Below, one piece after another: positions 27,668-62,382 of a DNA stretch of 64,000 nt. Position 1 is the stretch's first letter, and each line of letters starts with the position of its first letter. The position numbers were made by a program, and so were the translations under genes. This DNA comes from a virus, in IMG/VR virus record IMGVR_UViG_3300009130_000002; one strand, given 5' to 3'. The notes beneath the pieces were generated by a model, which saw only the letters and a list, made by a program, of their open reading frames with translations, did not search any database and was not told the DNA's origin.

Positions 27668-29356
27668 ATGGAAGCGCCTAATAGCGTAATACTAGTATCA
27701 CAATACAAAACAGTGAGCCCCCGCTCTCCTGCAAATTCAAATTTCATTAATGATCTAGTTGGACAAACTGGAGCAGATTTAAATAATTTAAAAAGTCAAT
27801 TCAATAAGTTATTAACTGGTGTAGAAAAAGGGGTTGATGAAACCATCGCCTGGGGGAATGAAGGGCATGGCCTAGATGCACATTCTCTTTTCTATGACTC
27901 AACTGCAACTACCGGAACTTACTTTGATGCTGCAGCAGGACTACCCAAATCAATTCATGATATTGTGGGTGAAATAGAAACAACAATTACAGAACTACCT
28001 ACCGAAATAAATATCACTGCAGAACAAGTATCTTTTGATACCGTTGGTCTTCCCTCAGCTTATACAGATATGGATCCTGCAAATGTTCAAGAAGTTCTTG
28101 TTAATGTTATCAATTCTATTCCAGAGCTAATAGACGGAGAGTTTACTGCCATAAACTCTAGCATTATTACATGGAATGGTGATATTATTCCAGATCTTGA
28201 TAATACTTATAATATCGGTGCCCCAGAAAAAATTTGGGCAACTGGGCATTTTAATAAGATATTTATTGGTGGAACAGAGGTTTCAGGAGATAGTTTCAAT
28301 ACTGATGCAGCATCAGTTACTTACGATGGCATAGATGCAATCACAAACGAACCTTACAAACATTATCAAGATTCATCAACTCCAACTGTTTCAGTTGTTG
28401 CAAATGTAAAACAAGCTTTAGATCTCTTAGGAGATTTAGATTCAGATCCAGAATTTAATAGAGCAGGGGAAACATTAAAAGGCCCAATGGGCAATATTGT
28501 TACTACTGTTGTAGGCACCCAAGGCATGACGGTTAGCGAATGGCTAACTGCATTGTTCTTCCCATTCGAGCCTGCAGTTCTTGATGTCTGGAATGTTCAT
28601 ACTCCAAAAGAGAAGGGCACAACACTTTTAGATCATACTTGTAACTGGGTTGTTGCTCCGAACGATGGACAGATACTTCAAATAGAAGTAGGTCTAAATA
28701 ACGGATCTTTGTCGGATACTGGAGCTACAGATGCTTCAGGGAGTCATACATTTCCGGGGTCATTTTCTACAAATACAACATTTCAGATTCAAATTACTTG
28801 TGATACGGAAACAGGAATTTTAAGCGACAGTAAAGAGCTACAGTTCTTTGCAAGATTTTTCTATGGCCATTTCCCACAGAGCACAAATAATGGTCAAGCA
28901 TCGGAAGCAGATATTTTAGCAATGGAATACGATGTAGCAGGTGCTTCTGCCTCTGCCAACCTTAGCCCAGGATATGATCCTTCAAAAATTAGTGGTGGGT
29001 TTGAATATAAGTATGGTCCAGAAGAAGCAGAAGGAAACAGTGGTATTGGCCCACAGCATATCTATATAGCAATTCCTACTTCATATCGAATCCATATGGA
29101 AAATTGGGAAGATGGAACATTTTCTGATAACTGGAAATTTGTTAGAGATTTAAGCAATTTCACAACTGTAGATGCAACAGATCCAGCACAAGGATTTATT
29201 CCAATCAATGACTCAAATAAAGGAAACTTTAGCATTAACTTGCCACTCAAAGCAGACCAAGGTCAAACTGAGGAGTATTTGCTCTACTGGTACGATGCGG
29301 CAATAAACTATCAAGTGAATTTCGTTAATCATATATTTGAATTTAAGAGCTTTTAA
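27668..29356 (+). CDS. Fibre/spike protein, triplet 1 member 1
   Basis: SD TAAGGAG. GDIIPDLDNTYNIG fibre motif. Shares VKQALDLLGDL, TVSEWLTALFFPFEPA, ARFFYGH, QHIYIAIP and PLKADQGQTEEY with the next gene. Confidence 0.6.
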   Translation: MEAPNSVILVSQYKTVSPRSPANSNFINDLVGQTGADLNNLKSQFNKLLTGVEKGVDETIAWGNEGHGLDAHSLFYDSTATTGTYFDAAAGLPKSIHDIVGEIETTITELPTEINITAEQVSFDTVGLPSAYTDMDPANVQEVLVNVINSIPELIDGEFTAINSSIITWNGDIIPDLDNTYNIGAPEKIWATGHFNKIFIGGTEVSGDSFNTDAASVTYDGIDAITNEPYKHYQDSSTPTVSVVANVKQALDLLGDLDSDPEFNRAGETLKGPMGNIVTTVVGTQGMTVSEWLTALFFPFEPAVLDVWNVHTPKEKGTTLLDHTCNWVVAPNDGQILQIEVGLNNGSLSDTGATDASGSHTFPGSFSTNTTFQIQITCDTETGILSDSKELQFFARFFYGHFPQSTNNGQASEADILAMEYDVAGASASANLSPGYDPSKISGGFEYKYGPEEAEGNSGIGPQHIYIAIPTSYRIHMENWEDGTFSDNWKFVRDLSNFTTVDATDPAQGFIPINDSNKGNFSINLPLKADQGQTEEYLLYWYDAAINYQVNFVNHIFEFKSF

Positions 29357-29374
29357 TAGCCAAGGAGAGAAAAA

Positions 29375-30901
29375 ATGGCAATCCCATTAGCAGATAATTA
29401 TAACTTACTAATCGCTGGCCCACTAGACGCCAAGCAAGTTATTAGCAGCAAGGCTGCATTACAGAATATTTCAAGTCCCTACAATGGGCTCATAGTGTTT
29501 ATAGCAGACACGAATACAATCGTATGTTGTTTTGACGCGGCAAATGTTGTTGCCAATAGCCTAGCCGGTGGTGAAATTAACGATGCGGTTTGGAAAACAA
29601 TTCCAATTGCTGGTGGAGATGGAGCTTTCTTGGCACAAGACATTACTTACGATCCAAATGAAGCAAACTTTGCTCATTACGATAACGGAGTTCTTACGGT
29701 TAAAGATGCCTTAGATGTTTTGGGTGATTTAAATTTAGTTTCAGCTACAGGGGATGTTACTCACAGCCCAATACAAAACAGTGTTGCAGCAAACTATGCA
29801 AGCACGACTACGTCAAAAGATGCTCTGGATTATTTGGCTGTAATGCAGGAGTCTCAAGCTGGCTCTATTTCTACGAATGCAACAGATATAGCTACGAACG
29901 CAACTGCAATTTCAAATGTGGATACAGATCAGGTATTCGCTAAGTCTGGTATAGCAATTAAAAATATCCCAACAAGTGGAGAGGTATTTGGAACCCCTAC
30001 AACTGGAACTGTTGGTGAATGGCTTCAAGCTGCTTTCTTCCCGTTTGTTCCTGCAAGCGGTACAAGCACAATGTTACGTGAAGACGGAGCAGACCTAAGC
30101 AACACAACAATAGAGCTAGGAGAAACAGTTAGTGGGACAATTGGTCTGACTGGAACTTGGCAAATGGATAGTGGTGATTCTGTCAGTGATGGTAAAATCT
30201 ACTATGAAGAAGCTGTTATTGGAAACACCAATAATGGAACATTTAGTGGTAGCTACACTCAGGACGCAAATGGAAATGCAAATACAGGAGATTTTACAGT
30301 TCCTGGAGCAGGAGATCCAAAGACAATTACCCTAAGTGATAGAAATTTTGCTGTATCAGAATTTGACGATACAGTTCGCTTTAAAATGTCAGCAGTGTTT
30401 GCAAATAATGGAAGTCCAGCAACAATTGAGACTCCAGTCAGAACTGTAACCTTTAAGGCAAGATCTTTTTGGGGACACACAGCCACTCAAAGTGGTGCAG
30501 GTCTTGCTGCTGAACTTAGAAGCATGCAAGCTACTGGAGGGACTGTTGGTTTGCTTAGTGGAACCGGAACATTTGATACTGTAACAGGACAACATATATA
30601 TATTGGTATTCCCCTTAGAGAGAACAGATATTTACAGCAAATTGTTCAAGCAGGTGGTAACCAAATTGAAGGTTGGGAAATTGTTACAGATCTAGTCAAT
30701 GGCACAGTAAAGGACACTACAAATAATAATGAGGTTCCAAATGGAACAAATGGATATGATGCAAGAAATACAAGTGATACTGTAGACATTCCACTACATG
30801 CAGATGCAAGTAGAACAGAAAAATATATTGTATATCGTAGAGAGGCAACATGGAATGATCCAGTAATTCCATTTGCAGGTTTTACGTTAGTATTTAATTG
30901 A
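29375..30901 (+). CDS. Fibre/spike protein, triplet 1 member 2
   Basis: SD AAGGAG. Body paralogous to 27668 (VKDALDVLGDL, TVGEWLQAAFFPFVPA, ARSFWGH, QHIYIGIP, PLHADASRTEKY). N-terminal about 78 aa paralogous to 30917. Confidence 0.6.
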   Translation: MAIPLADNYNLLIAGPLDAKQVISSKAALQNISSPYNGLIVFIADTNTIVCCFDAANVVANSLAGGEINDAVWKTIPIAGGDGAFLAQDITYDPNEANFAHYDNGVLTVKDALDVLGDLNLVSATGDVTHSPIQNSVAANYASTTTSKDALDYLAVMQESQAGSISTNATDIATNATAISNVDTDQVFAKSGIAIKNIPTSGEVFGTPTTGTVGEWLQAAFFPFVPASGTSTMLREDGADLSNTTIELGETVSGTIGLTGTWQMDSGDSVSDGKIYYEEAVIGNTNNGTFSGSYTQDANGNANTGDFTVPGAGDPKTITLSDRNFAVSEFDDTVRFKMSAVFANNGSPATIETPVRTVTFKARSFWGHTATQSGAGLAAELRSMQATGGTVGLLSGTGTFDTVTGQHIYIGIPLRENRYLQQIVQAGGNQIEGWEIVTDLVNGTVKDTTNNNEVPNGTNGYDARNTSDTVDIPLHADASRTEKYIVYRREATWNDPVIPFAGFTLVFN

Positions 30902-30916
30902 AAGTAGGAAGTTAAA

Positions 30917-33730
30917 ATGGCAATAGCGATAGCTGATAATTATGTGTGCCTTATAAATTGGCCTCTTGATTCTAGAAATAAAGTGCTCAGTATTGATGAA
31001 ATGAAAACAATGACCTCGCCATTTGATGGGGTAATTACATTTCTCAATACAAATGATGCTAATAGGGGTCTTTATTATCTTGAAGATGCGAACCAGATTG
31101 ATGGTGACGGTATGGACGATGCGACATATCTTGACAGTGTCTGGAAACCGGTAGGATCGGGTGGAGGTGGAGGTGGTAGCGCAAATATCAATAGCGCTCC
31201 CGATGGTTCTTTTGGTTGGTATTCATCTACTGGAACTACAATTAGTGGGCTAGACAAAGAAGCTATGCAGGTCATGGGTGGTTCAGGAAATAACTACATA
31301 AAGATAGGCTATGCTGAAGATGAACTCGCTTTGGATGTTGAAGGTCGCATACAGTTAACGGTCGCAGAAGAAGGCAATCTTGAAGTATTCGGCGTCTACG
31401 ATGGTGACGATAGAAAAGTAATGAAGGTCAAAGGAAACTGCATTGAATTGCATGACTTTCCAGTAGGAGGAGCAGGAAGCATCAAGTGGTATGATGGAAG
31501 TGCAACTCCAGAAACAATCACCTTAACAGCTAGACCAAACTTTGCAAGCTATACATTGACTCTCCCTCCTTTAGGTCCAGCTCAGGGAGAGTACCTAATG
31601 GCTGGGGCAGGAGGAAACCTCGCTTGGGGAACTCCTACGGGATCAGGGAGTGTAACTAATTCTGCTGATGCAAAGCCAATTGCTTACTATGCAAACGCAG
31701 GGGATGTTGTTAGTCCTACAGATGCAGATGCGCTAACAGTAGATGCTGGCGGAAAAGAACTTGTTGTTCGTAAAGATGGGAAGGTCATGTTCATGGATGA
31801 GGCTCATCTTACTGCAACCATGATGACTGGTGATGGAACAGGTAAAATGGGGGTTCTGTTTAAGAACACAGGAACTAACCCAAGCTACTTAGATATTGAA
31901 AAGCTTTCTGGTCCAGATGTCTGCATGAGAATAGAACCAAATGAAACCTTTGTTGGGGACTCAACTAATCCTGCACTACAAATCGGAACAGGTGGTCTAC
32001 AGTTTTATACAGAGGATGCAGCAGACGGCGTACACACCAAGGCAGTTATCAGAAATAACCTAACAGGAACTGGAGATTATTTGGTTCTTGAAGGCACTAA
32101 GAGTGGCGGAGGAGCTATCAAGCCAGAGCTGGTAAAAATTGGCCAAGGAGCGTTGGAAATTTTTGGTAATCTAAGGGTTGAAGACACAGTAACAGGTACT
32201 GGACCTTCTGGATATCTAGAGTTGGGTTCAGATATAGATATGAATCTAAACAGTATTCATAATGTTTCAATTGCACAAATCGCAATAATCAATGGCTTGA
32301 ATACAGTTAATTCCCTTGATGGAGATATCCACTTTATAGATACAGATGTAGTTATCCAAGGTGGCAGTAATCAAAATGGAGATCTCACTGTTGCAGGAAA
32401 CCTGGATGTAGGTGGCACGGCAGAACTAGACGGTTTAGATGTGGATGGTAATGCAGAGTTCGGATTTTATGATGGTAATTATAATCCTGTAGGAACTGAT
32501 ACAACCTTTCTTGTGTATGGTGGCCCACATACTGAACCTAACTTAAGTTCAAGAATTCATGGACCACGAGTGAGAGGTTCAAATTATTCTCGTTTAACGA
32601 TTGAATGCAGGGATCCTATTAACGAAAAATTATGGCACGAAAGCAATCCTCATCCAGATATGACAGATTATACTGGGGGTGAATGGATAAGTACCAGTGG
32701 CAGCACTGCTCTTCCTTGGGGAGATGGTGGTACTGGAGAAATGAGTCCAGTAAGTGGTCCTGTCTTGTCTTTCGATAGTTGGCAATATGGTCCTGGCGGT
32801 GATGCCGGTATGCCTTATCCAGTAGAACGTTACTTTATAAGAGATACTGTTGCGAACTTCCCCTGGTATACATTCCACGCTGGAACAGCAGATCAGTATG
32901 ATGTTCCAGGTCAAGCTACCTTACGGTGGTCAACCAATAATACAGGACTGCGTATATGGCCAGACTGGATACAGGTGGGAGATGAGATTCGTGTAGCTCC
33001 TGGTGGTGAAGGGTTCTTAGATACCAATGGCACAACTTATGAATGGGCAACTGTTCTTGACGTTGATAATGTCAATAAGCTAATTAAACTGGATAGGGAT
33101 ACTGTATATGCTAGTCCAGCAACACAAGAGTTAAAAGTCAGTCCAAAAAGAAAAGATATCACTAGCTGGGAGATCTATAAACAAAGTAGCCCCGTAAATA
33201 TGCATAGTGGAGCTGGTAAAGCTTACACTGCTGATATCTGCAATCTTGATGAGTTTGAAACCCTCAATTTCAGACCCATTATGAGAGTGTATACTAACGA
33301 ACAAATTGATGAGCCAGATGGTAACTTACCACCTGCAGGAATTTACACTAGCGTACCGGTTCCTACGGATGTCGCTTTTCGTATTCGATCTGATGGGAAA
33401 GTAGAAGCTAAAACAACTTATTTAACAGGTTCCTCCAGGAATATAAAACAAAATATTGAAAACCTATCAGAAGAAAAATCTAGTTTAATATTAGAGGGAT
33501 TACAACCAGTAACATTTGAATATAAAACAAGTCCTGGTGAATCTCGTATAGGTTTTATTGCAGAAGATGTTCCAGAATATGTTGCTGAAAAAAATAGAAA
33601 ATCAATTTCAACATTAGACATTGTTGCAGCAATAACTGGAGCCCTTAAATCACAAAGTGAAAAGGTAAAAACCCTTGAAAAAGAAATTGAAGATATGAAA
33701 CAACTATTACAAAACTCAGGAGTAATTTAG
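30917..33730 (+). CDS. Tail fibre/spike with C-terminal Peptidase S74 intramolecular chaperone
   Basis: GSSRNIKQNIENL (Ser 33431/33434, Lys 33446), LQPVTFEYK, IGFIAEDVP and a terminal coiled coil make up the canonical S74 autocleaving chaperone. Confidence 0.85.
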   Translation: MAIAIADNYVCLINWPLDSRNKVLSIDEMKTMTSPFDGVITFLNTNDANRGLYYLEDANQIDGDGMDDATYLDSVWKPVGSGGGGGGSANINSAPDGSFGWYSSTGTTISGLDKEAMQVMGGSGNNYIKIGYAEDELALDVEGRIQLTVAEEGNLEVFGVYDGDDRKVMKVKGNCIELHDFPVGGAGSIKWYDGSATPETITLTARPNFASYTLTLPPLGPAQGEYLMAGAGGNLAWGTPTGSGSVTNSADAKPIAYYANAGDVVSPTDADALTVDAGGKELVVRKDGKVMFMDEAHLTATMMTGDGTGKMGVLFKNTGTNPSYLDIEKLSGPDVCMRIEPNETFVGDSTNPALQIGTGGLQFYTEDAADGVHTKAVIRNNLTGTGDYLVLEGTKSGGGAIKPELVKIGQGALEIFGNLRVEDTVTGTGPSGYLELGSDIDMNLNSIHNVSIAQIAIINGLNTVNSLDGDIHFIDTDVVIQGGSNQNGDLTVAGNLDVGGTAELDGLDVDGNAEFGFYDGNYNPVGTDTTFLVYGGPHTEPNLSSRIHGPRVRGSNYSRLTIECRDPINEKLWHESNPHPDMTDYTGGEWISTSGSTALPWGDGGTGEMSPVSGPVLSFDSWQYGPGGDAGMPYPVERYFIRDTVANFPWYTFHAGTADQYDVPGQATLRWSTNNTGLRIWPDWIQVGDEIRVAPGGEGFLDTNGTTYEWATVLDVDNVNKLIKLDRDTVYASPATQELKVSPKRKDITSWEIYKQSSPVNMHSGAGKAYTADICNLDEFETLNFRPIMRVYTNEQIDEPDGNLPPAGIYTSVPVPTDVAFRIRSDGKVEAKTTYLTGSSRNIKQNIENLSEEKSSLILEGLQPVTFEYKTSPGESRIGFIAEDVPEYVAEKNRKSISTLDIVAAITGALKSQSEKVKTLEKEIEDMKQLLQNSGVI

Positions 33731-33734
33731 TGAA

Positions 33735-34139: not shown

Positions 34140-34149
34140 GGAGTGTCTT

Positions 34150-34488: not shown

Positions 34489-34491
34489 GAA

Positions 34492-35490
34492 ATGCCCAAA
34501 GGCCTTGATGTGGGAACTTCTTTTCTAATCACTGCAGAGGAAACTCTAGAAGGAGTATCCTACAAAGAGATGCGTGATGCATTTTACAGAATGAAACCAG
34601 CAACAAAAATTGCTGCCAAGATGATGGAAAGAGGATTACAGAACCTTACCTACCTAAAAGACGTTGACGGGTCCTATGTTGTCGTAGGAGCTGATGCAAT
34701 TGCCAAAGCAATAGAAAGACACCAATCCGCACAGCGGCCCCTATACAGGGGTGTTATTAGCCCCAGAGAGCCTGATGCTCGAAGGGTGCTTAAGTTTATT
34801 TTAGCCGAGCTTGTCGGTAAACCACAAACCCAAGGAGATACCCTTGTTTACTCAATTCCTGCTGAACCTGTTGATCAATCTGACGAAGACTTTAATACCG
34901 GATACCACGAAGATGTACTTAGAAAGGATCTTGGTGAACTTGGTTGGGATGCTAGAGCACTCAATGAAGCGGAGGCTATCTGCTATTCTGAGTTAGAAAA
35001 TGAAGACTATACTGGAATCTGTATGTCCTTTGGAGCGGGTATGGTTAATGTATGTGTTATGTCTTCTGGAGAACCAGTAATCAAGTTCTCTACTACAAAA
35101 TCAGGAGACTGGGTAGACAGAATGGCAGCCCAATCCACTGGACAGCCAGATAGTATTGTTCAAGTTGAAAAAGAAGAAGGTGATTTCACTGTAGGAGAAG
35201 AGTCAGAGAATCCAATCTTGTCTGCAGTAAGTTCTTATTATGTAAGACTTATTGATTACACTACACAACACCTGGCATTACGGCTTTCAAATAGCAATGA
35301 CCTTCCTAAATTCCAGGGACCTATCCCTGTGGTGGTAAGTGGAGGAACTAGTAGAGCAGGCGGATTCGTAGAAGCATTCCGCAAGAGGATGTCTCAAGCT
35401 GATTTTCCTTTAGAAATCAGTGAAGTACGTCATGCAACAGACCCCTTAAGAGCTGTTGCTAGGGGCTGCCTACTCGCAAGTATCTTGTAG
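34492..35490 (+). CDS. Actin-fold ATPase (MreB/MamK/ParM superfamily)
   Basis: All five actin-fold motifs in order: phosphate-1 GLDVGTS, connect-1 LNEAEA, phosphate-2 region MSFGAGMVNV, adenosine VVSGGTS, connect-2 DPLRAVARG. 332 aa with no extra domains. Confidence 0.88.
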   Translation: MPKGLDVGTSFLITAEETLEGVSYKEMRDAFYRMKPATKIAAKMMERGLQNLTYLKDVDGSYVVVGADAIAKAIERHQSAQRPLYRGVISPREPDARRVLKFILAELVGKPQTQGDTLVYSIPAEPVDQSDEDFNTGYHEDVLRKDLGELGWDARALNEAEAICYSELENEDYTGICMSFGAGMVNVCVMSSGEPVIKFSTTKSGDWVDRMAAQSTGQPDSIVQVEKEEGDFTVGEESENPILSAVSSYYVRLIDYTTQHLALRLSNSNDLPKFQGPIPVVVSGGTSRAGGFVEAFRKRMSQADFPLEISEVRHATDPLRAVARGCLLASIL

Positions 35491-38821: not shown

Positions 38822-39103
38822 ATGAAAGAACCGGGGTATAAGTGGATGATAGGGCCGATGATTACGGTCACTATGTTAGTATGTGGATTAGCTACTAGTT
38901 GGGGAGTCACTAAGACTTCTTTAGATCAATTAAATACACAATTAGTAAAAGTAGAATTGAAAATAAATGAACATGAGGATAAGATTAGAGATATACAGAT
39001 ACAGCAAGCTGGGACAAACCAAGTCCTAAAGAGTATCCAAAATAGCTTAGAAGAAATAAAGGAAGATTTAAGAGTCTTACGTTCTCACACAAAGAGAAAG
39101 TGA
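38822..39103 (+). CDS. Small membrane-anchored coiled-coil protein (holin/XhlA-like architecture)
   Basis: One N-terminal hydrophobic helix (MITVTMLVCGLATSWGV), then a heptad coiled coil and a basic tail. Confidence 0.5.
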   Translation: MKEPGYKWMIGPMITVTMLVCGLATSWGVTKTSLDQLNTQLVKVELKINEHEDKIRDIQIQQAGTNQVLKSIQNSLEEIKEDLRVLRSHTKRK

Positions 39104-39104
39104 G

Positions 39105-52140: not shown

Positions 52141-53145
52141 ATGGCACTTACAGATGAAGAGCTTGCAAGAATTACAAGTATAGAGACAGCAGTAAATACG
52201 ATTCAGTCCTATGTGACTAATTTGGCAAGCAAAACAATCGTTAAACAGTTAAATTTACTCAGAGAAAAAAGCATTGAAGAATTAAATACACGTATAGACA
52301 ATTTAAATGGAGAATCTTCTGATGGTTTAACCATTGAAGACCTTAGCTTGTTTGCAACAAAAGAGCAGATGAAGCAACTTCTGCTTTTGAATCAAGAAAG
52401 CTTAACAAGAATTGAAAATCAAGCGAATGCAAGTTCTTATTTGAGAACTATGGAAGATGTTACAATCGAGGGAGACCCAGAAGAAGGACAAGTACTCTTA
52501 TTCGATAATGTTGACGGATGGACAAACCAGGATTTAGCCAACGCAGGATTCGCATTAGCAAATCATGGACACAGCCTAGAAAGCTTAAGCAATGTTAGTT
52601 CTGCAGGGGCACAGGCAGGATATATATTACAATATAATGCCACCAATAATACCTGGGTAGCTAGCGAAGCAAATATGGCAATGATTTTGGATGGTCCAGC
52701 AGGATCATTCGGTATCTATAACGATGACACTTCGACAATCATCCCCCTTACAGCATTAAATTGGGATGAATTAACTTCTGCACTTACAGTTGATGGAGAT
52801 TTATCTCTCAGTGGAAGCACAGAAATCAAGGGAAAAGTTATTGACAATATAGGGGTGGCTCCAACCACTCTAGATATTTTTAATATTTCTCAATATAGGA
52901 CGATCAAGTATCTAGTTGAAATTAAAGATAAAGACAACAGTAGTTATTTATCGCAAGAAATTCTCCTAGTTCATGACGATCAAAATGTTTACATAAGCGA
53001 ATATGGTGTTATATTTACATCAGAGGACAATTTTACCACGTTTACAGCGGAACTGGATACTAATGCGGGCACGATTGCGTTGCGTTGCCAGTGTACCGGT
53101 CCGAATAATGTGGCTAAAATAACTAGAATAGTTATGACTGCTTAA
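52141..53145 (+). CDS. Short fibre/adaptor protein, triplet 3 member 1
   Basis: N-terminus paralogous to 39366. Two shaft repeats. C-terminal about 90-aa beta-domain (YRTIKYLVEI...QEILLVHD...YISEYGVIFT) shared with 53169 and 56737. Confidence 0.65.
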   Translation: MALTDEELARITSIETAVNTIQSYVTNLASKTIVKQLNLLREKSIEELNTRIDNLNGESSDGLTIEDLSLFATKEQMKQLLLLNQESLTRIENQANASSYLRTMEDVTIEGDPEEGQVLLFDNVDGWTNQDLANAGFALANHGHSLESLSNVSSAGAQAGYILQYNATNNTWVASEANMAMILDGPAGSFGIYNDDTSTIIPLTALNWDELTSALTVDGDLSLSGSTEIKGKVIDNIGVAPTTLDIFNISQYRTIKYLVEIKDKDNSSYLSQEILLVHDDQNVYISEYGVIFTSEDNFTTFTAELDTNAGTIALRCQCTGPNNVAKITRIVMTA

Positions 53146-53168: not shown

Positions 53169-56100
53169 ATGGCAAACAAACAATTTATTGTAAAACACGG
53201 TATGGATGTCAAAAGAACCGATGGGACTTCGTCACTTAGTATCGCAGCTGATACTGGTGCGTTGACTATGGGTCAGGCATTAAATACAACAAGCACAATA
53301 GAATCGGGAGCAAAACTTACAGTTGCTGCTGGTGGTGCAGACATCAACGGAATGTTAGATGCAAAAGGTGGCTTAAATGTCACTGGTGGTGACGTAGTCG
53401 TTACCGGAAACTTAACTGTAAATGGAACAACCACTACAGTTAATTCAAACACGGTTACTATTGACGATCCGGTTTTCACCCTTGGTGGAGACGCGGCTCC
53501 GAACTCAGTATCCACAAAAGATCGTGGAATTGAATTCCGCTGGCATGATGGTTCAAACCCTAAAATGGGTTTCATGGGTCGTAGTAATGCAAGTGGAAAA
53601 TTTCTCTTCATTTCGGATGCTTCTATTAGCAATGATACCTACAGTGGTACTGCAGCAACTCTTGTTGGTGCATTAGAAGGTAATGCTGATACAGCAACCA
53701 ACTTTAACAGTGATCGTACTTTAACGATTACTGCTGATGATATCAATGGAACTAGCAGCACAAGTGCTACTGGCAATCACAGTGTTTCACTAACAATTGG
53801 TGCAAACAAGGTAACTTTCGCTAAGTTCCAAACTCTTTCCGACTTAAAAGTAGTTGGTAATGTTTCAGGTGCTACTGCTAATGCAGCAGAAATTAGCATT
53901 GATACAGACATGGCTGGCGGCGTTTCTGGAAGTCACGATTCTTTAGCTTCTGCTAAAACAATCAAAGAGTATGTTGATGCGCAACTTTCATCTGCTAACT
54001 CTATTGCAGAGATGACTGATACTGACATTTCAGGTATCGATCAGGCTCATGTTTTAGTTTATGACAAAGATGATGATGAGTGGCAGAACCAAGTTTTAAC
54101 TGGCGACGTTACTATGACCAAAGACGGTGTAACCGCAATCGGTGCACAAAAAGTTACTGATGCAATGATTCAGAACGGTGGTCTTGCTAACGCAAGTCTT
54201 ACTAATTCAACTGTTGCTTTTGGTGGCGTTTCTCTTGCACTTGGTGCAGCGGATACAACCCCAGCATTCAACTTAGAAGATGCAACTGGTTATCCTACTA
54301 GCTCTCTCGTTGGTACTATTACTAACGCACAGTTAGCAGGCTCAATTGCAAATGATAAATTAGCTGGCTCTATCGCTAACGATAAGCTTGCTAATTCAAC
54401 CGTTGCTTTCGGTGGTGTTTCATTGGCCCTCGGTGGGACTGATGCAACACCTGCATTCAATCTTTCAGATGCGACAGCATATCCAACAAGCTCACTTGTC
54501 GGTACAATTACCAATAATCAGCTTGCTGGTTCAATCGCTTCAACTAAGATTGCAGAACTTAACAACTTTTCTACTGATGACTTAGCAGAAATAGCTGGAA
54601 CAGAGGCTGAGAAACTTGCTTCTGGCAAAGCCTATTTCAGTGTAGCTCGTGGAAGAGCAGCTATCCCTGCTCCTACAGTAACTAACCCAGATTCAATGGG
54701 TAACTTTGAATATAATAGCACATCAGGTGTAATGACTTACACTGCCCCAACCAATGCAGAAACTGTAGCGCAATTTGACGCTTCAGCAGATGATGGTTTC
54801 AACCTTAGCAATGCTGGTGTAATCACTCTTGATCAAAGTATCAAGACTGGTGCTACTCCTACTTTTGCTGGCTTAACTATTACTGGTAATTTAGTTACTA
54901 ACGGAACTACCACTACTGTTAATGCCACTCAAATGGATATCCAAGATCCAGTTATGCGTCTTGCATCTAACAACGGTGCAGATAGTCGTGACATTGGTCT
55001 TGTTGGTAAGTACAATGATGGAGCTGACAAGCATACCGCTCTTTTCCGTGACGCAAGTGATGGAAAGTGGAAGCTTATCACCGAATCTACCCAAGCAGAT
55101 ATTTCTACAGCGAATGAAATCGTTGCTGCAAATGGAACTAAGGGTACACTTGTTGCTAACCTCGAAGGTAATGTCGTTGGTGACGTTACTGGTGATGTTA
55201 CCGGTAATGCAGATACTGCAACCGCTCTTGCAGCTACTAGAACTTTTGCTATCACTGGCGGCGGCATTACTGCTGCAGCTCAGGACTTCAATGGTTCACA
55301 AAACGTAAGCCTCAGTGCTTCAATTGACGCAAATGCAGTTACTCTTGCTAAGATGGCTCAGCTTGCTGACATGAAAGTTATCGGTAACGTTTCTGGCGGT
55401 ACCGCTGATCCAGCTGCTGTAAGCATTCTTGATGAAGATGATCTATCTTCTGATTCTGCTACTGCTCTTGCTACACAGCAAAGCATTAAAGCATATGTTG
55501 ACAGTGAAATCACTGCTGCTGGTTCTATGGCAGCTCTTTCTGACACAACTGTTGCAGCTGCAGCTGATGCACACATCATGGTTTATGACAATGCCACTAG
55601 CAAGTGGGAAAATCAGGTCATGGCTGGCGATGTAACCATGAGCAAAGATGGTGCAACTACTATTGGTGCTACTAAAGTAACCAATGCAATGTTAGCTGGT
55701 TCAATTGAGAATGGAAAACTCCAGAACTCAACTGTAGCTTTTGGTGGAGTAAGTCTTTCCCTCGGTGGAACTGATACAACTCCAGCATTTGATCTTCAGG
55801 ATGCAACCAATCTTCCAACTACTTCTCTTACTGGTACTATTACCAATGCGCAGTTAGCTGGAAGCATTTCAAATGACAAACTAGCAGGAAGCATCGCAAA
55901 CGATAAGTTAGCGAACAGCACTGTTGCCTTTGGTGGCGTATCTCTTTCCTTAGGTGGTAGCGATACTTCTCCAGCATTTGATCTTTCTGATGCAACTGAT
56001 TACCCAACAAGTTCTCTTGTAGGAACAATCACAAATGCACAATTAGCGGGTTCAATTGCTAATGACAAGCTAGCTAATAGCACTGTTTCTGGTAAGGCTC

Positions 56101-56627
56101 TTGGTACTAACCTTGACGCACTTACTTCAGCAAGTAATGCATTAACTATGTCTGGCGACTACAACGGTAGTGCAGCTAGAACAGTAACTCTGTCTCTTCA
56201 TGACAATGATGCTCTTGAAGTTGGCGCAAGCGGTCTTGATCTTAAGGACACTATCGCAGGTGCTCGTACTTTCAGTGAACAAGTTACTGCTAGTGCAGGT
56301 GTTGACATGGGTCAAGCTGCAATGGCAACTGCTACATATACAGCTTCAGATGCAAATGCAGGAACTGCAGATTCATTTGCAAAAGGAACTTTCCGTTCAG
56401 CCAAGTATGTTGTTCAGGTAACCAGTGGAACTGATTACCAGTGCAGTGAATTACTTGTAATTCATGACGGTGTAACTGCAAGCGTTGCAGAATACGGTCT
56501 TATGCATACAAGTGCAAGCGCACTTATGACTTTCGATGTAGACATCGATGGTGCTGATGTAAGACTAAGAGCAACTGGTTCTGCTAACGATGTCGTTAAG
56601 CTAACTAGAAGCTGCATTAAGCTTTAA
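53169..56627 (+). CDS. Repetitive fibre protein (1152 aa), triplet 3 member 2
   Basis: SD GGAGGT. Internal about 500-aa tandem duplication, with 63-aa repeats inside it. C-terminal shared domain FRSAKYVVQV...SELLVIHDG...AEYG. Codons are visibly GCT/ACT/GGT/CTT-rich. Followed by a terminator. Confidence 0.75.
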   Translation: MANKQFIVKHGMDVKRTDGTSSLSIAADTGALTMGQALNTTSTIESGAKLTVAAGGADINGMLDAKGGLNVTGGDVVVTGNLTVNGTTTTVNSNTVTIDDPVFTLGGDAAPNSVSTKDRGIEFRWHDGSNPKMGFMGRSNASGKFLFISDASISNDTYSGTAATLVGALEGNADTATNFNSDRTLTITADDINGTSSTSATGNHSVSLTIGANKVTFAKFQTLSDLKVVGNVSGATANAAEISIDTDMAGGVSGSHDSLASAKTIKEYVDAQLSSANSIAEMTDTDISGIDQAHVLVYDKDDDEWQNQVLTGDVTMTKDGVTAIGAQKVTDAMIQNGGLANASLTNSTVAFGGVSLALGAADTTPAFNLEDATGYPTSSLVGTITNAQLAGSIANDKLAGSIANDKLANSTVAFGGVSLALGGTDATPAFNLSDATAYPTSSLVGTITNNQLAGSIASTKIAELNNFSTDDLAEIAGTEAEKLASGKAYFSVARGRAAIPAPTVTNPDSMGNFEYNSTSGVMTYTAPTNAETVAQFDASADDGFNLSNAGVITLDQSIKTGATPTFAGLTITGNLVTNGTTTTVNATQMDIQDPVMRLASNNGADSRDIGLVGKYNDGADKHTALFRDASDGKWKLITESTQADISTANEIVAANGTKGTLVANLEGNVVGDVTGDVTGNADTATALAATRTFAITGGGITAAAQDFNGSQNVSLSASIDANAVTLAKMAQLADMKVIGNVSGGTADPAAVSILDEDDLSSDSATALATQQSIKAYVDSEITAAGSMAALSDTTVAAAADAHIMVYDNATSKWENQVMAGDVTMSKDGATTIGATKVTNAMLAGSIENGKLQNSTVAFGGVSLSLGGTDTTPAFDLQDATNLPTTSLTGTITNAQLAGSISNDKLAGSIANDKLANSTVAFGGVSLSLGGSDTSPAFDLSDATDYPTSSLVGTITNAQLAGSIANDKLANSTVSGKALGTNLDALTSASNALTMSGDYNGSAARTVTLSLHDNDALEVGASGLDLKDTIAGARTFSEQVTASAGVDMGQAAMATATYTASDANAGTADSFAKGTFRSAKYVVQVTSGTDYQCSELLVIHDGVTASVAEYGLMHTSASALMTFDVDIDGADVRLRATGSANDVVKLTRSCIKL
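53403..56090 (+). repeat. About 1.5-kb tandem internal duplication containing four 63-aa (189-nt) repeat units
   Basis: TGNLTVNGTTTTVN at 53403 recurs as TGNLVTNGTTTTVN at 54882. NSTVAFGGVSL units start at 54204, 54393, 55725 and 55914, with a partial copy at 56076. Confidence 0.85.
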
Positions 56628-56642
56628 TAATACTATAGGTTT

Positions 56643-56685
56643 AGCCTCCCTCCGGTTTAATCCGGGGGGAGCCTTTTCCTTTTTT
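56643..56685 (+). terminator. Rho-independent terminator
   Basis: Stem CTCCCTCCGG (56646-56655) / CCGGGGGGAG (56662-56671) with one G-U pair, loop TTTAAT, followed by CCTTTTCCTTTTTT. Lies about 15 nt after the 53169 stop. Confidence 0.85.
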
Positions 56686-56736
56686 AATTTTTGGAATTTG
56701 GTTAATATAAAAAAATCAGTGGAGGATATTTAAAAC

Positions 56737-59700
56737 ATGGCAACTGTACCATTTAAACTAAGACAAGGATTGCGAGCACATGGCGATAATTTAGTCGTCA
56801 CCGATGTGGGTGTCGCAATCAACAAAGACAATCCAACCGTAGCACTCGACGTGGATGGATCAATTAAGAGTAATGAATTACAATTACAATCGAACTTTTT
56901 AATAGCATCGGCTTCAACACAAGTGGGAACAAGCCTTGAAACTGTGGATAGCTTCCCTAAAGATGATTTCCATGCTGTTAAGTATGTTATCGGGGTTGAC
57001 ACAAATGATGGGACTGAAAGACAAATCGCTGAAGTTCTTCTTGTTGTAGATTCTGATAACGATGATGCATACATCTCAACTTATGGTGTACTTTATAGTG
57101 GCGCGAGTGCAATTGCCACTTTCACCAGTGATGTAAATGCAGGAAACGCAAGATTACTAGCGACGTGCACAAGTGCAAACTGCACAGTCAAAGTACAGAA
57201 AATAGCCACATACACTGGGACAGGCAGCGCAGCCTCTCCAAGTGAAATAACCTTTAATCTTACTGATTTAAATGGGGTTACAGTTAGTAACGCTCAAGCT
57301 AACCAGGTTCTTCAATACGTTGGCGGGGAATGGACAAACCAGACCTTAAACGTTTCAAGTACTTTTGCAGGCTTAACTGATGGTCCTGGTGCTTTGAATG
57401 CAAATCAATGGATTAAGGTAAATACGGCAGGAAATGCTCTAGAATATACAGCAGCTCCAGCGGCAGCAGGTCACAATCACGATGCTGATTACGTATCTGC
57501 TACAGCTTCAGTTCTTGCTCATACTTCAAATATTGATTTCAATGTTAACTCAACAAAGTTGGGTGCATTTAAGAGTCATCAATATACAGGGGCAGATATT
57601 GTAAGTGGTGGCGTAACAGTTATCCAACAAAATCAAACATTTACAGGCTTAATGCCTGGTGCACACCACACTCATAGTCTGGGTGCAGTTGATAACTCTT
57701 GGGATTATGTATTCGCTAGAGAAATGTACATTACTTCTGGAAACTCTCTCTATATTGATGGAAAGAAGTTTCTCCAGAGTGATGCAGAAACAATCAACAT
57801 CTCTGCAGATACAGATCAGAACATTACAATCCAAACTTCTGGAGATGGAAATGTTGAACTAGATCCTGTTGGAGCTGGTTCTATTAACATGAAGGGCAAC
57901 ATTGTTATGACTGCCGCGAAGACTATTTCTTCGGCTTCTGGAAATATAACCTTCAACTCTCCTATTGATATGGATAGTCGTAAGATTGTTAACGTAACAA
58001 CTCCAACTGCTGCAGGTGATGCAGCTAACAAGGGATACGTAGATGGCGAAATCACTGCCTTAATTGGTGGTGCTCCTGGTGCTCTTGACACTCTTAATGA
58101 GTTAGCAGCAGCGCTTGATGATGATGCAAGCTATGCAACAACTATTACTAACGCATTAGCAGGGAAATCAGATACAAATCACACACACACTTTAGCTAGC
58201 TTAAGTGACACTTCTATTGGAACCCCAAATAATGGACAAGTTCTAACTTATGACACTACTTCAGGTAGTTGGGAACCAGCAGAACCACAAACTGGAACCA
58301 TGGGTGGAGCAATGACTGCTCACATCATTCCAGATACAAATGCAGCCTACGATTTAGGTAATGCAGAATACAAAATTAGACACTTATTCTTATCTGACAA
58401 CTCTCTCTGGGTAGGTGATCAACATAAGATCTCTATTTCTAGTGGGAATATGAAGTTCAGAAAGAGAAAAATGACTACTCCTGAAGCAGTAATTTCTGCA
58501 GGTGGTAACGAAGCAGCAGCTCTCGCACATGGTGGAGTAGCTTCTGTAAATGATATGACAATTGCTAAGTGGTTTGCTTATTATAAAACACTTGATGGTC
58601 AGTCTGGAGCAAGAATCAACGATATCTTTAGAGATAACGCAGCTGACTGGGACAAGGATGATGAAGCAGGTAGCGTAGCAAGTTCTAACTTAACTGATCT
58701 TAAAGACGTAGCTTCTGCAGGAGCAGAAGACGGACAAGTTCTTAAGTGGAGCGGATCTTCTAGTGCATGGGTTGCAGGCAACTCTGGTGGAACAGCTAAA
58801 GTAGATTCAGATACTGAACTATATGTTTCACCATTAAGCACAGATAGTGTTATTGCAGATAAATCTGGCAATGGAATGACTGTAGGGTCATCCGGTAGCC
58901 CAGCAATTAGCTCTGCACAGACACACTTTCCGAATACGAATCCGGTATATTTTGACGGAACGGATGATAACTTAACCTTCACAACAGAGGCATCACTACA
59001 TAGTTCAAACTTTACATTTGAATGTTGGATTTATACAGACTTAAGTCAAGGTGGCCGCCTTTATAGTGTAGGTAATGATCACAGTCCTGGTTATCGTACT
59101 TGGATTTCATTTGATACAGCTGGGGTAGTATACGCAGCTGGTTACACGCACCCAAATGGTGGTGGTATCAAAACTTCAGCTGGAGCATTAACCGCTAATA
59201 CTTGGACTCATGTCGCAGTAGTAAGAAACAGCGGTAGCGACTACATTTACATAAATGGTACTGGACATAACACAGCATATGATTTTGGTTATGGTGCTGG
59301 TGGTTCAATCATGACTCAGCCTAGTGATACAGGCTATAGATTGATTGGTTGTGGACAATCTGGACACACTGGAGCGAAAAACAGCTTCTTCAAAGGCTAT
59401 ATGGATGAATTACAAATCTCCAAGATAGTAAGATATACTGCAAACTTTACAGCCCCTACTTATAGAGGTGATGCAACAAGCACATTTGTTCCTTCTACTC
59501 TTAATGATCTTTCAGGTGTAAGCACTACTGGTGTTACTTCTGGACAAGTTCTTAAGTACAATGGATCTAGTTGGGCCGCAGCAGATGATGCTGCAGGCAG
59601 TGCAGCTGTATTCAGTACAAATGGAACAAATGCATATTATAATGCAGGAACAGTATCCTTTGGAAGCACTACTGCTGACCACAGTTCAAACTTTTATTCA

Positions 59701-62382
59701 AAGAACACAGCGGCTGCAGATAGCGATCACCTCACTATTTTTGAAGGTAGCAGAAGATCAAATATCCAACTAAGAGGTAACAGAACTGATGATAACGATT
59801 TAGGTTATATCGCTTGGTTCAATGGAGCTAATGGTGTTGCAAGTATGACCGCTCAAAGAGACGGTGCAGATGATGCTGGTGAGTTACACTTCTATACAAA
59901 GCCTACTGGAGGAAGCAATACCCAAAGAATGACTATTGCCTCAGACGGCAATGTAGGTATTGGAACAGATACCCCATCTCAAGCACTTGAGGTGGTAGGA
60001 ACAGTAACAGCAACAGCATTTGTTGGAGACGGCTCAGCCTTAACGGGAATCAATGCTTCCTTCAATGGAGGAACTATTACTAACGGATTAACAATTGACG
60101 ATAATTCATCTGATGGTTCAAAAGGCCTTACTGTTACAGGTGGTGGTCAAGGCAATGCAATTGCAACATTTACTAGAGATGTTGGAGCAACTGGAACAAT
60201 TGCTATTCACTCAAGTGGTGAAGATCCTGCAATTTACTTCCAAAGTTCTAACAATACTTTTGTTCTTGGAACTAATGGAAGCTCATTTGAGATTGCAGAT
60301 AATGGATCTTTAGGAACCAATACAAGATTTACCATAGACAGCTCAGGCAACATTGATGTTGGCGGATCTATAACTGCAGGTAGCTTTGTTGGTGACGGCT
60401 CAAATCTAACTAATCTTCCAGCATCCTCATGGGATGGCGGGACAATTGCTACTCCATTAACAGTTGCAAACAATAGCGAGTCTGCCCCTTATGCAAAAAT
60501 AATTCTCAAAGATACTAATACGGCAATGAACAACAATGCCTATAACGCATGGACCTCATATACTGATTCAAGTAATAATGAGGCTGGCTGGACAGGCTTT
60601 GGAGCAAGTGCAAATAAGGAATACTATATTCACAATAACCAAGGTGGAGTTCGTGTTGACGTAAAAGCAGGAAATGAATTTGCTGTTTACAGCGTAGCAA
60701 ATGCGAGTAGCTCAGTATTCACAGTAAGTGATGCTGGTGCAGTTGTTGGAGCTAGTTTTACTGGAGATGGTTCAGGACTTACTAATTTACCTTCTTCTGA
60801 ATGGGACGGAAGTCTTACTGGAAATGCAGATATTGGCGGAACTCTTGAAGTTCTTACAGGATCTGGAGCAGGTGCTCGTAAGATTAAGGTTTATGACTCT
60901 GATGGTGGTGGTTACATCACTATTGATGCTCTTAGAAATGACAACGATGCCTCAAGAGATCTGTCTTTACAGATGGCTGGAAGCAATGTTGGTATTGGAA
61001 CTTTATCTCCTTCAGAAAAATTAGAAGTTAACGGGACTGTTAAGGCAACTGCATTCTCAGGTGATGGTTCAGCTCTAACAGGAGTTAGTGCTTCATGGAA
61101 TGGTGGACAAGTAAGTAATCCGGTCATGATCAACACTTCTAGCAACCTAAATGCTCAACTTTATGTAGAGCAAACTGCAAATACGACAAATGGTGGTATT
61201 GCAATTGGACGCAATGGTGGAGTGCAGGCATTCTACATGTCTAATGTTTCAAGCCAATTAAAAATTGGAGCAGACAATGACGGTAATGGAACTATTGATG
61301 TTGATGCATTGACTATTAACTATGATGGAGAAATTACTGCAAGCAATCATCTCTTTGTGGAAGGTGATGGAAAATTCCTAAGAGTTAAGAGCAGTGACTT
61401 TGACAATGTTGCAATAGGTTCTGCAGGTGGCGGAACTCCTGATTCTGGTTGGGTTGGAGTTAAGAAAGCTGGCTCTACAATTATCAGCTTAAATGCAGAT
61501 AGTGGACTTGTTACAGCAACCACATTCGCAGGAAGTGGGGCTTCTTTAACAAATCTCCCAGCTGCTCAGTTGACAGGAACTTTACCTGCAATAGATGGTT
61601 CAAATTTAACCAATCTTCCTGCTGGTAGTAATCTTACCACTAAAGGTGACTTAGAAGTATACACTACTTCAGCAACTAGATTGGCTGTTGGAACTAATGG
61701 CCAAGTACTTACCGCAGATTCTTCTGAAGCTTCAGGAATGAAGTGGGCAGACGCAGCTGCTGGTGGTGGAGCAACTTTTACTGCTGCTACTACTGCACCA
61801 GCTGGTCCAAGCAATGGAGATACCTGGTATGACACTGATGACAATATACTTTATCAAAGAATTACTGACGGTGGTGGCACCGGAGTATGGTTAGATATCT
61901 CAAGCACCAGCGGTGGTGCAAACACATGGAGTAGAAGTGGTGACAACATCAACTATGCAGATGGCAACGTTGGTATTGGAACAGCTTCACCTTCACAAAA
62001 ATTAGAGGTAGCTGGTTCTGTCACAATAAGTGAGGATTTACACCAAAACGGTGTTTCTAGGATAACAAAAGGTGGCACAACGAATTGTAATGAAACGGTA
62101 TCATTCACCATAAGTAATACCAATGGAGGCACATTCAAAATCCGTGCTGGTTTTTTCCATTACGGAAATAGTAACTTTGGCTGTGCATATGAAGCAATTC
62201 ATTGCAACGGCGGTGGGGGAATGACTAATCTGACTCCTACAATTGACCATTCTACAGCCAATGGAGGGGCCTGGTCAGTAACAAGGGTTGATGCTAATGA
62301 TATAACAATATCTAAGAGTGCTGGTTCTTATAACGGTACTGGGAAGTATTACATTGTTGTAGAGGGAGCAGATTTAACATAA
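56737..62382 (+). CDS. Long tail fibre / adhesin (1881 aa) with LamG-like domain, triplet 3 member 3
   Basis: SD GGAGGA. Shared beta-domain near the N-terminus (56938-57215). Shaft repeats L-x-DL-x-[DG]V...[GN]QVL-x-[WY], IIPDTNAAYDLG motif, LamG at about 58900-59460, and repeated NVGIGT..PS..LEV.G.V.AT.F.GDGS.LT units. Confidence 0.8.
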   Translation: MATVPFKLRQGLRAHGDNLVVTDVGVAINKDNPTVALDVDGSIKSNELQLQSNFLIASASTQVGTSLETVDSFPKDDFHAVKYVIGVDTNDGTERQIAEVLLVVDSDNDDAYISTYGVLYSGASAIATFTSDVNAGNARLLATCTSANCTVKVQKIATYTGTGSAASPSEITFNLTDLNGVTVSNAQANQVLQYVGGEWTNQTLNVSSTFAGLTDGPGALNANQWIKVNTAGNALEYTAAPAAAGHNHDADYVSATASVLAHTSNIDFNVNSTKLGAFKSHQYTGADIVSGGVTVIQQNQTFTGLMPGAHHTHSLGAVDNSWDYVFAREMYITSGNSLYIDGKKFLQSDAETINISADTDQNITIQTSGDGNVELDPVGAGSINMKGNIVMTAAKTISSASGNITFNSPIDMDSRKIVNVTTPTAAGDAANKGYVDGEITALIGGAPGALDTLNELAAALDDDASYATTITNALAGKSDTNHTHTLASLSDTSIGTPNNGQVLTYDTTSGSWEPAEPQTGTMGGAMTAHIIPDTNAAYDLGNAEYKIRHLFLSDNSLWVGDQHKISISSGNMKFRKRKMTTPEAVISAGGNEAAALAHGGVASVNDMTIAKWFAYYKTLDGQSGARINDIFRDNAADWDKDDEAGSVASSNLTDLKDVASAGAEDGQVLKWSGSSSAWVAGNSGGTAKVDSDTELYVSPLSTDSVIADKSGNGMTVGSSGSPAISSAQTHFPNTNPVYFDGTDDNLTFTTEASLHSSNFTFECWIYTDLSQGGRLYSVGNDHSPGYRTWISFDTAGVVYAAGYTHPNGGGIKTSAGALTANTWTHVAVVRNSGSDYIYINGTGHNTAYDFGYGAGGSIMTQPSDTGYRLIGCGQSGHTGAKNSFFKGYMDELQISKIVRYTANFTAPTYRGDATSTFVPSTLNDLSGVSTTGVTSGQVLKYNGSSWAAADDAAGSAAVFSTNGTNAYYNAGTVSFGSTTADHSSNFYSKNTAAADSDHLTIFEGSRRSNIQLRGNRTDDNDLGYIAWFNGANGVASMTAQRDGADDAGELHFYTKPTGGSNTQRMTIASDGNVGIGTDTPSQALEVVGTVTATAFVGDGSALTGINASFNGGTITNGLTIDDNSSDGSKGLTVTGGGQGNAIATFTRDVGATGTIAIHSSGEDPAIYFQSSNNTFVLGTNGSSFEIADNGSLGTNTRFTIDSSGNIDVGGSITAGSFVGDGSNLTNLPASSWDGGTIATPLTVANNSESAPYAKIILKDTNTAMNNNAYNAWTSYTDSSNNEAGWTGFGASANKEYYIHNNQGGVRVDVKAGNEFAVYSVANASSSVFTVSDAGAVVGASFTGDGSGLTNLPSSEWDGSLTGNADIGGTLEVLTGSGAGARKIKVYDSDGGGYITIDALRNDNDASRDLSLQMAGSNVGIGTLSPSEKLEVNGTVKATAFSGDGSALTGVSASWNGGQVSNPVMINTSSNLNAQLYVEQTANTTNGGIAIGRNGGVQAFYMSNVSSQLKIGADNDGNGTIDVDALTINYDGEITASNHLFVEGDGKFLRVKSSDFDNVAIGSAGGGTPDSGWVGVKKAGSTIISLNADSGLVTATTFAGSGASLTNLPAAQLTGTLPAIDGSNLTNLPAGSNLTTKGDLEVYTTSATRLAVGTNGQVLTADSSEASGMKWADAAAGGGATFTAATTAPAGPSNGDTWYDTDDNILYQRITDGGGTGVWLDISSTSGGANTWSRSGDNINYADGNVGIGTASPSQKLEVAGSVTISEDLHQNGVSRITKGGTTNCNETVSFTISNTNGGTFKIRAGFFHYGNSNFGCAYEAIHCNGGGGMTNLTPTIDHSTANGGAWSVTRVDANDITISKSAGSYNGTGKYYIVVEGADLT

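What the first reader, a model, noticed from the sequence alone, without database searches (positions are those of the whole stretch)
27668..62382. Three fibre-gene triplets share one domain grammar: anchor+body, head+body, head+long fibre
Seen in sequence: Triplet 1 - 27668 and 29375 share a C-terminal body (EWL.A.FFPF.PA, AR.F.GH, QHIYI.IP, PL.AD...TE.Y), and 29375 and 30917 share an N-terminal head (MAI..ADNY..LI..PLD...SP[YF].G.I.F...D.VWK). Triplet 2 - 39366 and 41557 share an about 550-aa body, and 41557 and 43875 share an about 170-aa head. Triplet 3 - 52141 and 53169 share a C-terminal beta-domain, and 53169 and 56737 share that domain plus a short head (MANKQFIVKHGM / MATVPFKLRQGL, a weak match). 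The third gene of each triplet is the long distal fibre (S74, collar or LamG tip). Inference: the middle gene is a two-ended adaptor that binds gene 1 through the shared body and gene 3 through the shared head. This would give a relay for building jointed or branched fibres, repeated three times with unrelated modules. I do not recognise this repeated layout as a described system.
Basis: partly seen in the sequence, partly recalled or inferred. Interest (0 to 1): 0.82.

Follow-up and report, generated by a model that had tools for sequence, protein, structure and literature searches.

The report
Phage fibres chained by socket-and-plug joints
This uncultured phage appears to build three different fibres from chains of proteins in which the tail end of one protein is a socket for the head of the next, and the middle gene is an optional extension piece; one of the three joints is a widespread, unnamed protein pair that also lies beside the candidate head-filament gene of the classic Caulobacter phage phiCbK.

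Summary
The layout is real: triplets 1 and 2 are clean A-X / B-X / B-fibre. Triplet 3 fits only loosely (third gene carries X near its N-terminus; its head match is weak). The like-binds-like adaptor reading is not supported. For triplet 2, B is always N-terminal and X always C-terminal (154 homologues). In B-only searches an X-ending gene lies directly upstream in 79/79 and 76/76 scorable loci, nearly always as a bare A-X/B-Y pair with no middle gene, as in phiCbK gp73/gp74. Paired-sequence coevolution links B to the last ~160 residues of X (7 couplings in the top 50; 0 in five swapped controls). So X is probably a socket, B a plug, and B-X an extender that arose repeatedly (at least 9 changes on a quick tree; X-BX-BX-B chains exist). 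Triplet 3 uses a T4 gp9-like socket plus a short peptide, a known principle. Triplet 1 is inferred by analogy only. Binding is inferred, not measured. The scan noted the same socket-plug principle earlier on other DNA with other domains. Verdict: new variant of a known kind; the X2/B2 joint family looks undescribed.

The parts
27668..29356 (+). T1a, 562 aa: anchor plus C-terminal X1 body (aa ~285-562); last gene of the baseplate/virion block before T1b
29375..30901 (+). T1b, 508 aa: B1 head (aa 1-~80), helical stretch, X1 body (aa ~205-508); putative extender
   Evidence: kept in three close relatives
30917..33730 (+). T1c, 937 aa: B1 head plus fibre ending in an S74 chaperone (aa 839-891)
39366..41546 (+). 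T2a, 726 aa: coiled N-terminal anchor (shared with T3a) plus X2 (aa ~192-723; PHROG 8578, unknown function)
41058..41531 (+). C-terminal domain of X2 in T2a (aa 565-722): putative socket; carries the coevolution signal with B2
41557..43866 (+). T2b, 769 aa: B2 plug (aa 1-175; PHROG 9417) plus X2 (short helix, two Ig-like domains aa ~240-545, C-terminal beta domain); putative extender
43875..52007 (+). T2c, 2710 aa: B2 plug (aa 1-180) plus long fibre with LamG and C-terminal collar domain
52141..53145 (+). T3a, 334 aa: coiled anchor plus C-terminal X3 (T4 gp9 C-terminal-like socket, aa ~236-330)
53169..56627 (+). T3b, 1152 aa: short N-terminal docking-type peptide, long repetitive shaft, C-terminal X3 (aa ~1060-1148)
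56646..56671 (+). 10-bp G+C-rich hairpin with T run between T3b and T3c; terminator-like
   Evidence: consensus match only
56737..62382 (+). T3c, 1881 aa: weak head peptide, X3 copy at aa ~50-157 (possible branch socket), long fibre with LamG
62455..64000 (+). Further fibre-like gene with LamG-type matches, open at the window end; may continue the third series

Best explanation
Each triplet is a head-to-tail fibre chain. The C-terminal X domain of gene n is a socket that binds the N-terminal B module of gene n+1. The basic unit is a pair: A-X (anchored to the virion through A) plus B-Y (the swappable distal part). The middle gene B-X is an extender. It can arise when a segment spanning the X|B gene junction is duplicated, which turns A-X|B-Y into A-X|B-X|B-Y in one step, and it lengthens or joints the fibre. 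This phage uses three different socket/plug chemistries. Shown: domain polarity, gene order, dispensability and repeated origin of the middle gene (T2); X2-B2 coevolution; X3 homology to the T4 gp9 socket domain and its coupling in gene order to a head peptide; virion presence of a homologous T2 triplet in Atu_ph07. Inferred: physical binding, oligomer state, place on the virion, the duplication mechanism, and everything about T1, which rests on analogy (my odds: T2 0.8, T3 0.7, T1 0.5).
For: Polarity: among 154 homologues B2 begins at or near the N-terminus and X2 ends within 12 aa of the C-terminus in all; 23 carry both, some with over 1,800 aa between them. Order: with B-only queries an X2-ending gene is directly upstream in 79/79 and 76/76 scorable IMG/VR loci (sets overlap partly), usually with overlapping stop/start; only 1 of these loci has a middle gene. 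phiCbK gp73/gp74 and SCTP-2 gp230/gp231 are pairs; CcrSC, Kabachok, Atu_ph07 and Phosso are triplets. Longer chains exist: X-BX-BX-B in L262. B-X proteins are scattered on the X2 tree, at least 9 changes forced by starred branches (quick tree). In two-copy loci the identity of X copies tracks that of B copies (rho 0.80, 18 loci). Gaussian DCA on 212 representative adjacent X2|B2 pairs: 7 inter-protein couplings in the overall top 50 and 13 in the top 100 for X2 aa 565-722, against 0 and 1-3 in five controls with partners swapped between near relatives, and 0-1 and 4-9 for three other X2 windows of equal size. Atu_ph07 gp326/gp325/gp324 are all in the virion proteome, 9/13/6 peptides (PMC6102473 supplement; matched by size and position). 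T3: the X3 profile hits only gp9 aa 182-278 among 11 T4 tail proteins (E 3.6e-7); long fibres attach coaxially to that gp9 domain through the gp34 N-terminus (PMC3004832). X3 is C-terminal in 95/97 ORFs; the next gene starts with the F.VKxGL-type peptide after 18/57 X3-ending genes against 4/319 others (p 6e-13; motif was read from these same loci and loci are not independent); X3/peptide chains recur in L104, L148, L166.
Against: Coevolution rests on ~125-175 effective sequences and my own DCA script, with no solved structure to check contacts. Gene adjacency shows linkage, not contact. A few B-X genes have no B gene next to them (L174, L273, L291, L415). The DCA preferred adjacent over crossed matching in only 12-14 of 19 multi-copy cases, so the order within a triplet is not established. 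T3c carries X3 near its N-terminus (1 of 97) and its head is weak. T1 has no distant relatives here, so pair-versus-triplet could not be tested. The tree is the quick version and gene conversion could mimic repeated origin.
Confidence: 0.7

Rival explanations
1. One reading: the middle protein binds gene 1 through X-X and gene 3 through B-B contacts (hetero-oligomers of like domains).
For: Precedent: CBA120 TSP2 and TSP4 are thought to associate through homologous XD2 domains (PMC8825819, PMC11414711). The triplet order is kept in several distant phages.
Against: Almost all loci have a single X and a single B gene and still keep them adjacent. Coevolution is between X and B. B-X proteins with ~1,900-aa spacers put B and X at opposite ends of a shaft. 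Paralogous X copies here are only 26-32% identical.
Confidence: 0.1
2. The B-X protein is a self-polymerising subunit, (B-X)n, started by A-X and capped by B-Y, giving a long flexible filament such as a head whisker, in the manner of Goslar DUF7941 or a pilus.
For: B-X has both plug and socket. Goslar gp22 forms head-to-tail filaments (10.64898/2026.04.21.720040). Cultured carriers include phages with head filaments or whiskers: phiCbK group (PMC3556154), Atu_ph07 (PMC6102473); Foldseek also finds PTm1 proteins, a phage with head fibres (PMC7824862).
Against: phiCbK has a ~200-nm head filament but no B-X gene. Atu_ph07 gp325 has peptide counts close to its neighbours (13 vs 9 and 6), not those of a bulk polymer. 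Genomes with two distinct B-X genes suggest counted links. Adjacent matching is mildly preferred.
Confidence: 0.12
3. The middle gene is a by-product of tandem duplication or an alternative fibre base: A-X binds either B-X or B-Y, giving mixed or alternative fibres rather than a three-link chain.
For: One junction-spanning duplication explains the layout without selection for a relay; X and B copy ages covary. L418/L419 have two B-Y genes after one B-X. Matching specificity is weak.
Against: The middle genes are intact, keep a full X2 that folds well (pLDDT 83 overall), and are kept at 68-85% identity in a sister phage despite only ~27% identity to their paralogues, so they are old and maintained; gp325 is in Atu_ph07 virions.
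Confidence: 0.08

Closest known systems
T4 gp9 socket and gp34 long tail fibre (PMC3004832)
   Same: X3 is homologous to the gp9 C-terminal domain (PHROG 967 E 1e-7 to 8e-13); C-terminal socket receives the N-terminus of the next fibre protein.
   Different: Here the socket ends long fibre proteins and is reused in series; T4 gp9 is a short baseplate connector not next to gene 34. The gp34 head resembles the peptide by eye but does not score on its profile (E 0.35).
Branched RBP systems: Klebsiella KP32/K11/KP34 branching domain plus conserved peptide (PMC13352976); CBA120 TSP1-4 XD domains (PMC8825819, PMC11414711)
   Same: Anchor on the first protein only; a docking domain on one protein binds the N-terminal element of the next; paralogous modules shared within a gene cluster.
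   Different: There the docking domain lies N-terminal or central and makes branches; here it is C-terminal and makes a line (T3c may be a branch). X1/B1 and X2/B2 show no sequence link to gp10-like domains; B2 is a 175-aa domain, not a peptide.
Goslar DUF7941 head-to-tail fibres (bioRxiv 10.64898/2026.04.21.720040)
   Same: Paralogous virion proteins joined head-to-tail; distal members carry host-recognition domains.
   Different: No DUF7941 match (Pfam scan); DUF7941 holds both halves of the joint in each protein and polymerises in thousands of copies; here plug and socket are usually on two separate genes.
phiCbK gp73/gp74 (beside gp76, the head-filament candidate; PMC3556154), CcrSC gp130-132, Atu_ph07 gp326-324
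   Same: True homologues of X2 and B2 (32-37% identity), same order.
   Different: No function is assigned to them in the papers I read (gp73 and gp74 are not mentioned in PMC3556154); their B-Y is short (230-310 aa), here it is a 2710-aa fibre; phiCbK lacks the middle gene.

Membership tests
T4 gp9/gp10-type socket systems (triplet 3) | Domain homologous to the gp9/gp10 C-terminal domain | tested here: met
   X3 profile hits T4 gp9 aa 182-278, E 3.6e-7; PHROG 967 on all three copies; Pfam PF23618 only below its cut-off
T4 gp9/gp10-type socket systems (triplet 3) | Partner protein begins with a conserved docking segment | tested here: inconclusive
   Met for 53169 (E 3e-5) and enriched after X3 genes (18/57 vs 4/319); not significant for 56737 or T4 gp34
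T4 gp9/gp10-type socket systems (triplet 3) | Trimeric socket binds the partner trimer coaxially | not tested
   No model of this complex was made
Branched RBP systems (KP32, CBA120) | gp10-like XD branching domain in the anchored protein (triplets 1 and 2) | tested here: inconclusive
   No Pfam/PHROG match; fold searches of the T2b model mostly probed its Ig-like part; B2 and the X2 C-terminal domain were not folded alone
Branched RBP systems (KP32, CBA120) | Anchored protein keeps its own receptor-binding tip beyond the docking domain (true branch) | tested here: not met
   X1, X2 and X3 end their proteins; only T3c has sequence beyond X3
Chimallivirus DUF7941 fibres | DUF7941 domain | tested here: not met
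   No such family in the Pfam scan of all nine proteins at E 0.01
Chimallivirus DUF7941 fibres | Self-assembly into long filaments | not testable with these tools
   Needs purified protein
phiCbK gp73/gp74-like pair (PHROG 8578 + PHROG 9417) | C-terminal 8578 domain followed directly by a gene with N-terminal 9417 domain | tested here: met
   E 6e-88 and 1e-71 (8578), 7e-33 and 6e-39 (9417); order as
Phage head filaments or whiskers | Located on the capsid | not testable with these tools
   Only circumstantial: gene position after the major capsid gene in phiCbK-like phages; other loci have varied anchors and neighbours

The most novel reading that the evidence does not exclude
X2/B2 is an undescribed, very widespread socket-plug joint family of phage appendages that anchors or builds head filaments and whiskers (phiCbK, Atu_ph07, PTm1), and junction-spanning duplication is a general, repeatedly used way to add links to phage fibres, seen here three times in one genome with unrelated chemistries.
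Probability: 0.25. Interest if true: 0.8.

Novelty: new variant of a known kind. Interest (0 to 1): 0.58.

Why it matters
It gives a testable function to two large unannotated phage families (over 500 IMG/VR matches per capped scan) and names residues to mutate. phiCbK gp73/gp74 sit between the capsid genes and gp76, so the old question of how the phiCbK head filament is attached can be tested in a model phage. A rule that reads fibre assembly order from gene order (socket at the end of gene n, plug at the start of gene n+1) would help annotate large uncultured phages, and orthogonal socket-plug pairs are useful parts for protein assembly work.

Tried and rejected
Complex prediction of T2a X2 with T2b B2, 1:1, with 56-row alignments: no answer (score 0.00 twice); the likely trimer-on-trimer complex exceeds the size limit; not used as evidence either way. 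AlphaFold of T1b with 6 sequences failed (pLDDT 34.6). Fold searches of the T2b model gave only generic Ig-like matches in PDB (best Z 8.4) and weak Atlas rows; B2 and the X2 C-terminal domain were barely tested, so no claim of a new fold. No PDB sequence relatives for B2, X2 or X3 profiles. No distant relatives of T1 modules in IMG/VR, cultured phages or the protein database; Atlas gave only unnamed viral clusters. X1~X2 and B1~B2 homology rejected at available depth. T4 gp34 head as homologue of the T3 peptide: not significant. DCA test of matching within triplets: inconclusive. The metagenome scan (79/80) and scan A14 were ranked with a B+X query and so are biased towards loci with both; I rely on the B-only scans. 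No whole genome was held. Literature searches found no description of the X2/B2 pair, within a library that lacks most subscription journals.

Full report
Setting. The window is part of a large myovirus-type genome: a 2145-aa gene with an M23-type peptidase match at 736, a baseplate wedge gene at 8418 and a run of virion genes up to 27657. A contig carrying the T1b protein reaches 192 kb. Close relatives from metagenome assemblies, one from TARA, keep the same order. Triplet 1 ends the baseplate block; triplets 2 and 3 follow a short opposite-strand insert.

Observation. All-against-all alignment confirms triplets 1 and 2 as A-X / B-X / B-fibre. Triplet 3 is looser. Its shared beta domain X3 is C-terminal in 52141 and 53169 but near the N-terminus of 56737; the shared head is not significant pairwise; and a further fibre-like gene follows at 62455. 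The first genes of triplets 2 and 3 share an N-terminal coiled anchor (z 10.6), which suggests they attach to the same kind of site.

Triplet 2 has many relatives. X2 and B2 match PHROG 8578 and 9417, both of unknown function, and 53 cultured phage records. phiCbK has only A-X (gp73) and B-Y (gp74), between the capsid genes and gp76; SCTP-2 also has a pair; CcrSC, Kabachok, Atu_ph07 and Phosso have triplets. Among 154 homologous proteins B2 is always N-terminal and X2 always C-terminal, and 23 carry both, some with over 1,800 residues between them. With B2 alone as query, the gene directly upstream ends in X2 in 79 of 79 and 76 of 76 scorable loci, mostly with overlapping stop and start codons, and only one of these loci has a middle gene. 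The pair is thus the unit and the middle gene is optional. A targeted scan found about ten more triplet loci, one X-BX-BX-B chain (L262) and tandem pairs.

Origin of the middle gene. On a quick maximum-likelihood tree of 79 X2 domains the B-X proteins are scattered, with at least 9 changes forced by well-supported branches. In loci with two copies, X-copy identity tracks B-copy identity (rho 0.80). Both fit repeated duplication of a segment spanning the X|B junction, which yields A-X / B-X / B-Y in one step (inference; gene conversion or rate differences are not excluded).

Who binds whom. I paired X2 and B2 from adjacent genes (278 pairs, 212 representatives) and ran Gaussian DCA. For X2 aa 565-722, 7 inter-protein couplings fall in the overall top 50 and 13 in the top 100; the best is T2a W622 with T2b L73 (Z 9-11). 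Five controls with B swapped between near relatives gave 0 and 1-3. Three other X2 windows of equal size, under the same genetic linkage, gave 0-1 and 4-9. This points to direct contact between the X2 C-terminal domain and B2. The AlphaFold model of T2b (pLDDT 82.7) shows B2 with a poorly ordered N-terminal arm, a short helix, two Ig-like domains and a C-terminal beta domain; two of the coupled B2 positions (A30, Y32) lie in that arm. All three Atu_ph07 homologues are virion proteins (PMC6102473 supplement).

Triplet 3. The X3 profile built from 80 related loci hits only the C-terminal domain of gp9 among T4 tail proteins, the domain to which T4 long fibres attach through the gp34 N-terminus (PMC3004832). 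X3 is C-terminal in 95 of 97 ORFs. The next gene starts with a short F.VKxGL-type peptide after 18 of 57 X3-ending genes against 4 of 319 others, and a variant peptide follows many of the rest (motif taken from these loci, which are not independent). Three-link chains recur in L104, L148 and L166. So triplet 3 follows the same socket-then-plug rule with a known kind of socket. The extra X3 near the start of 56737 could be a branch point (inference). A terminator-like hairpin lies between 53169 and 56737.

Triplet 1. Only three close relatives were found, all triplets. X1 and B1 have the same polarity, so I extend the model by analogy, at about even odds.

Comparison with what is known. Works like: T4 gp9-gp34, the KP32 branching domain and docking peptide (PMC13352976) and Goslar DUF7941 chains. 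Membership: triplet 3 belongs with gp9-type sockets; triplets 1 and 2 are not filed under any described family. Earlier notes of this scan report socket-plug chains with other domains on other DNA; I did not test them and they are not support.

Place on the virion is open. Cultured X2/B2 carriers include phages with head filaments or whiskers (phiCbK; Atu_ph07), and Foldseek finds similar PTm1 proteins (E 6e-15 and 3e-5; their gene order not checked; head fibres per PMC7824862). But the A anchors and neighbours vary widely across loci, so X2/B2 may be a general joint used at several sites.

Verdict. Real feature; mechanism most likely a socket-plug chain with an optional extender (0.7). New variant of a known kind; interest 0.58, carried mainly by the X2/B2 family and its link to phiCbK.

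Noticed in passing
window 34492-35490 (+): Phage-encoded actin homologue: full-length Volactin match (PF25216, E 1e-64), conserved in all relatives, placed right after triplet 1 in the virion operon with three small genes. Volactin is described from haloarchaea (own knowledge).
   Followed up: partly
window 36102-37961 (-): 619-aa Cys-rich protein with signal/lipoprotein-like N-terminus, five Cu-binding_MopE repeats (E 5e-38) and a vWA-like C-terminal part by eye; such repeats are typical of myxobacteria (own knowledge), a possible host clue. Flanked by an SNase-like nuclease (35732) and a trypsin-like protease (37992), conserved in relatives.
   Followed up: no
window 39366-39500 and 52141-52280: First genes of triplets 2 and 3 share a coiled N-terminal anchor, duplicated internally in 52141; its binding site is unknown.
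   Followed up: partly
window 53169-56627, aa ~340-450 and ~850-975: Internal near-exact repeats (also matching cyanophage S-SKS1 at 69%), suggesting recent expansion of the shaft.
   Followed up: no
window 62455-64000; 56737 aa ~1680-1725: Next gene starts with another common cyanophage-type head (NFP.SP type); 56737 has a related small Trp-containing module near its end. Possible fourth plug/socket type; heads of this type also precede or follow X3 genes in L136, L123.
   Followed up: no
L415:141-19454: X gene, three B-X genes (681, 2543, 840 aa) and a B gene spread over 19 kb with opposite-strand genes between them; longest series seen.
   Followed up: no
L159, L161, L166, L136 (gap after the second X3 gene): Gap of ~100-120 nt before the last peptide-headed gene, like the 110-nt hairpin gap in the window; may set lower expression of the distal fibre.
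   Followed up: no
window 38822-39356: Two small membrane-anchored genes (weak spanin-like PHROG match; holin-like by eye) directly before triplet 2.
   Followed up: no
window 18684-27657: Virion genes related to large Bacillus and Moorella phage structural proteins, while triplet 3 parts resemble marine cyanophage fibres: a mosaic genome.
   Followed up: partly
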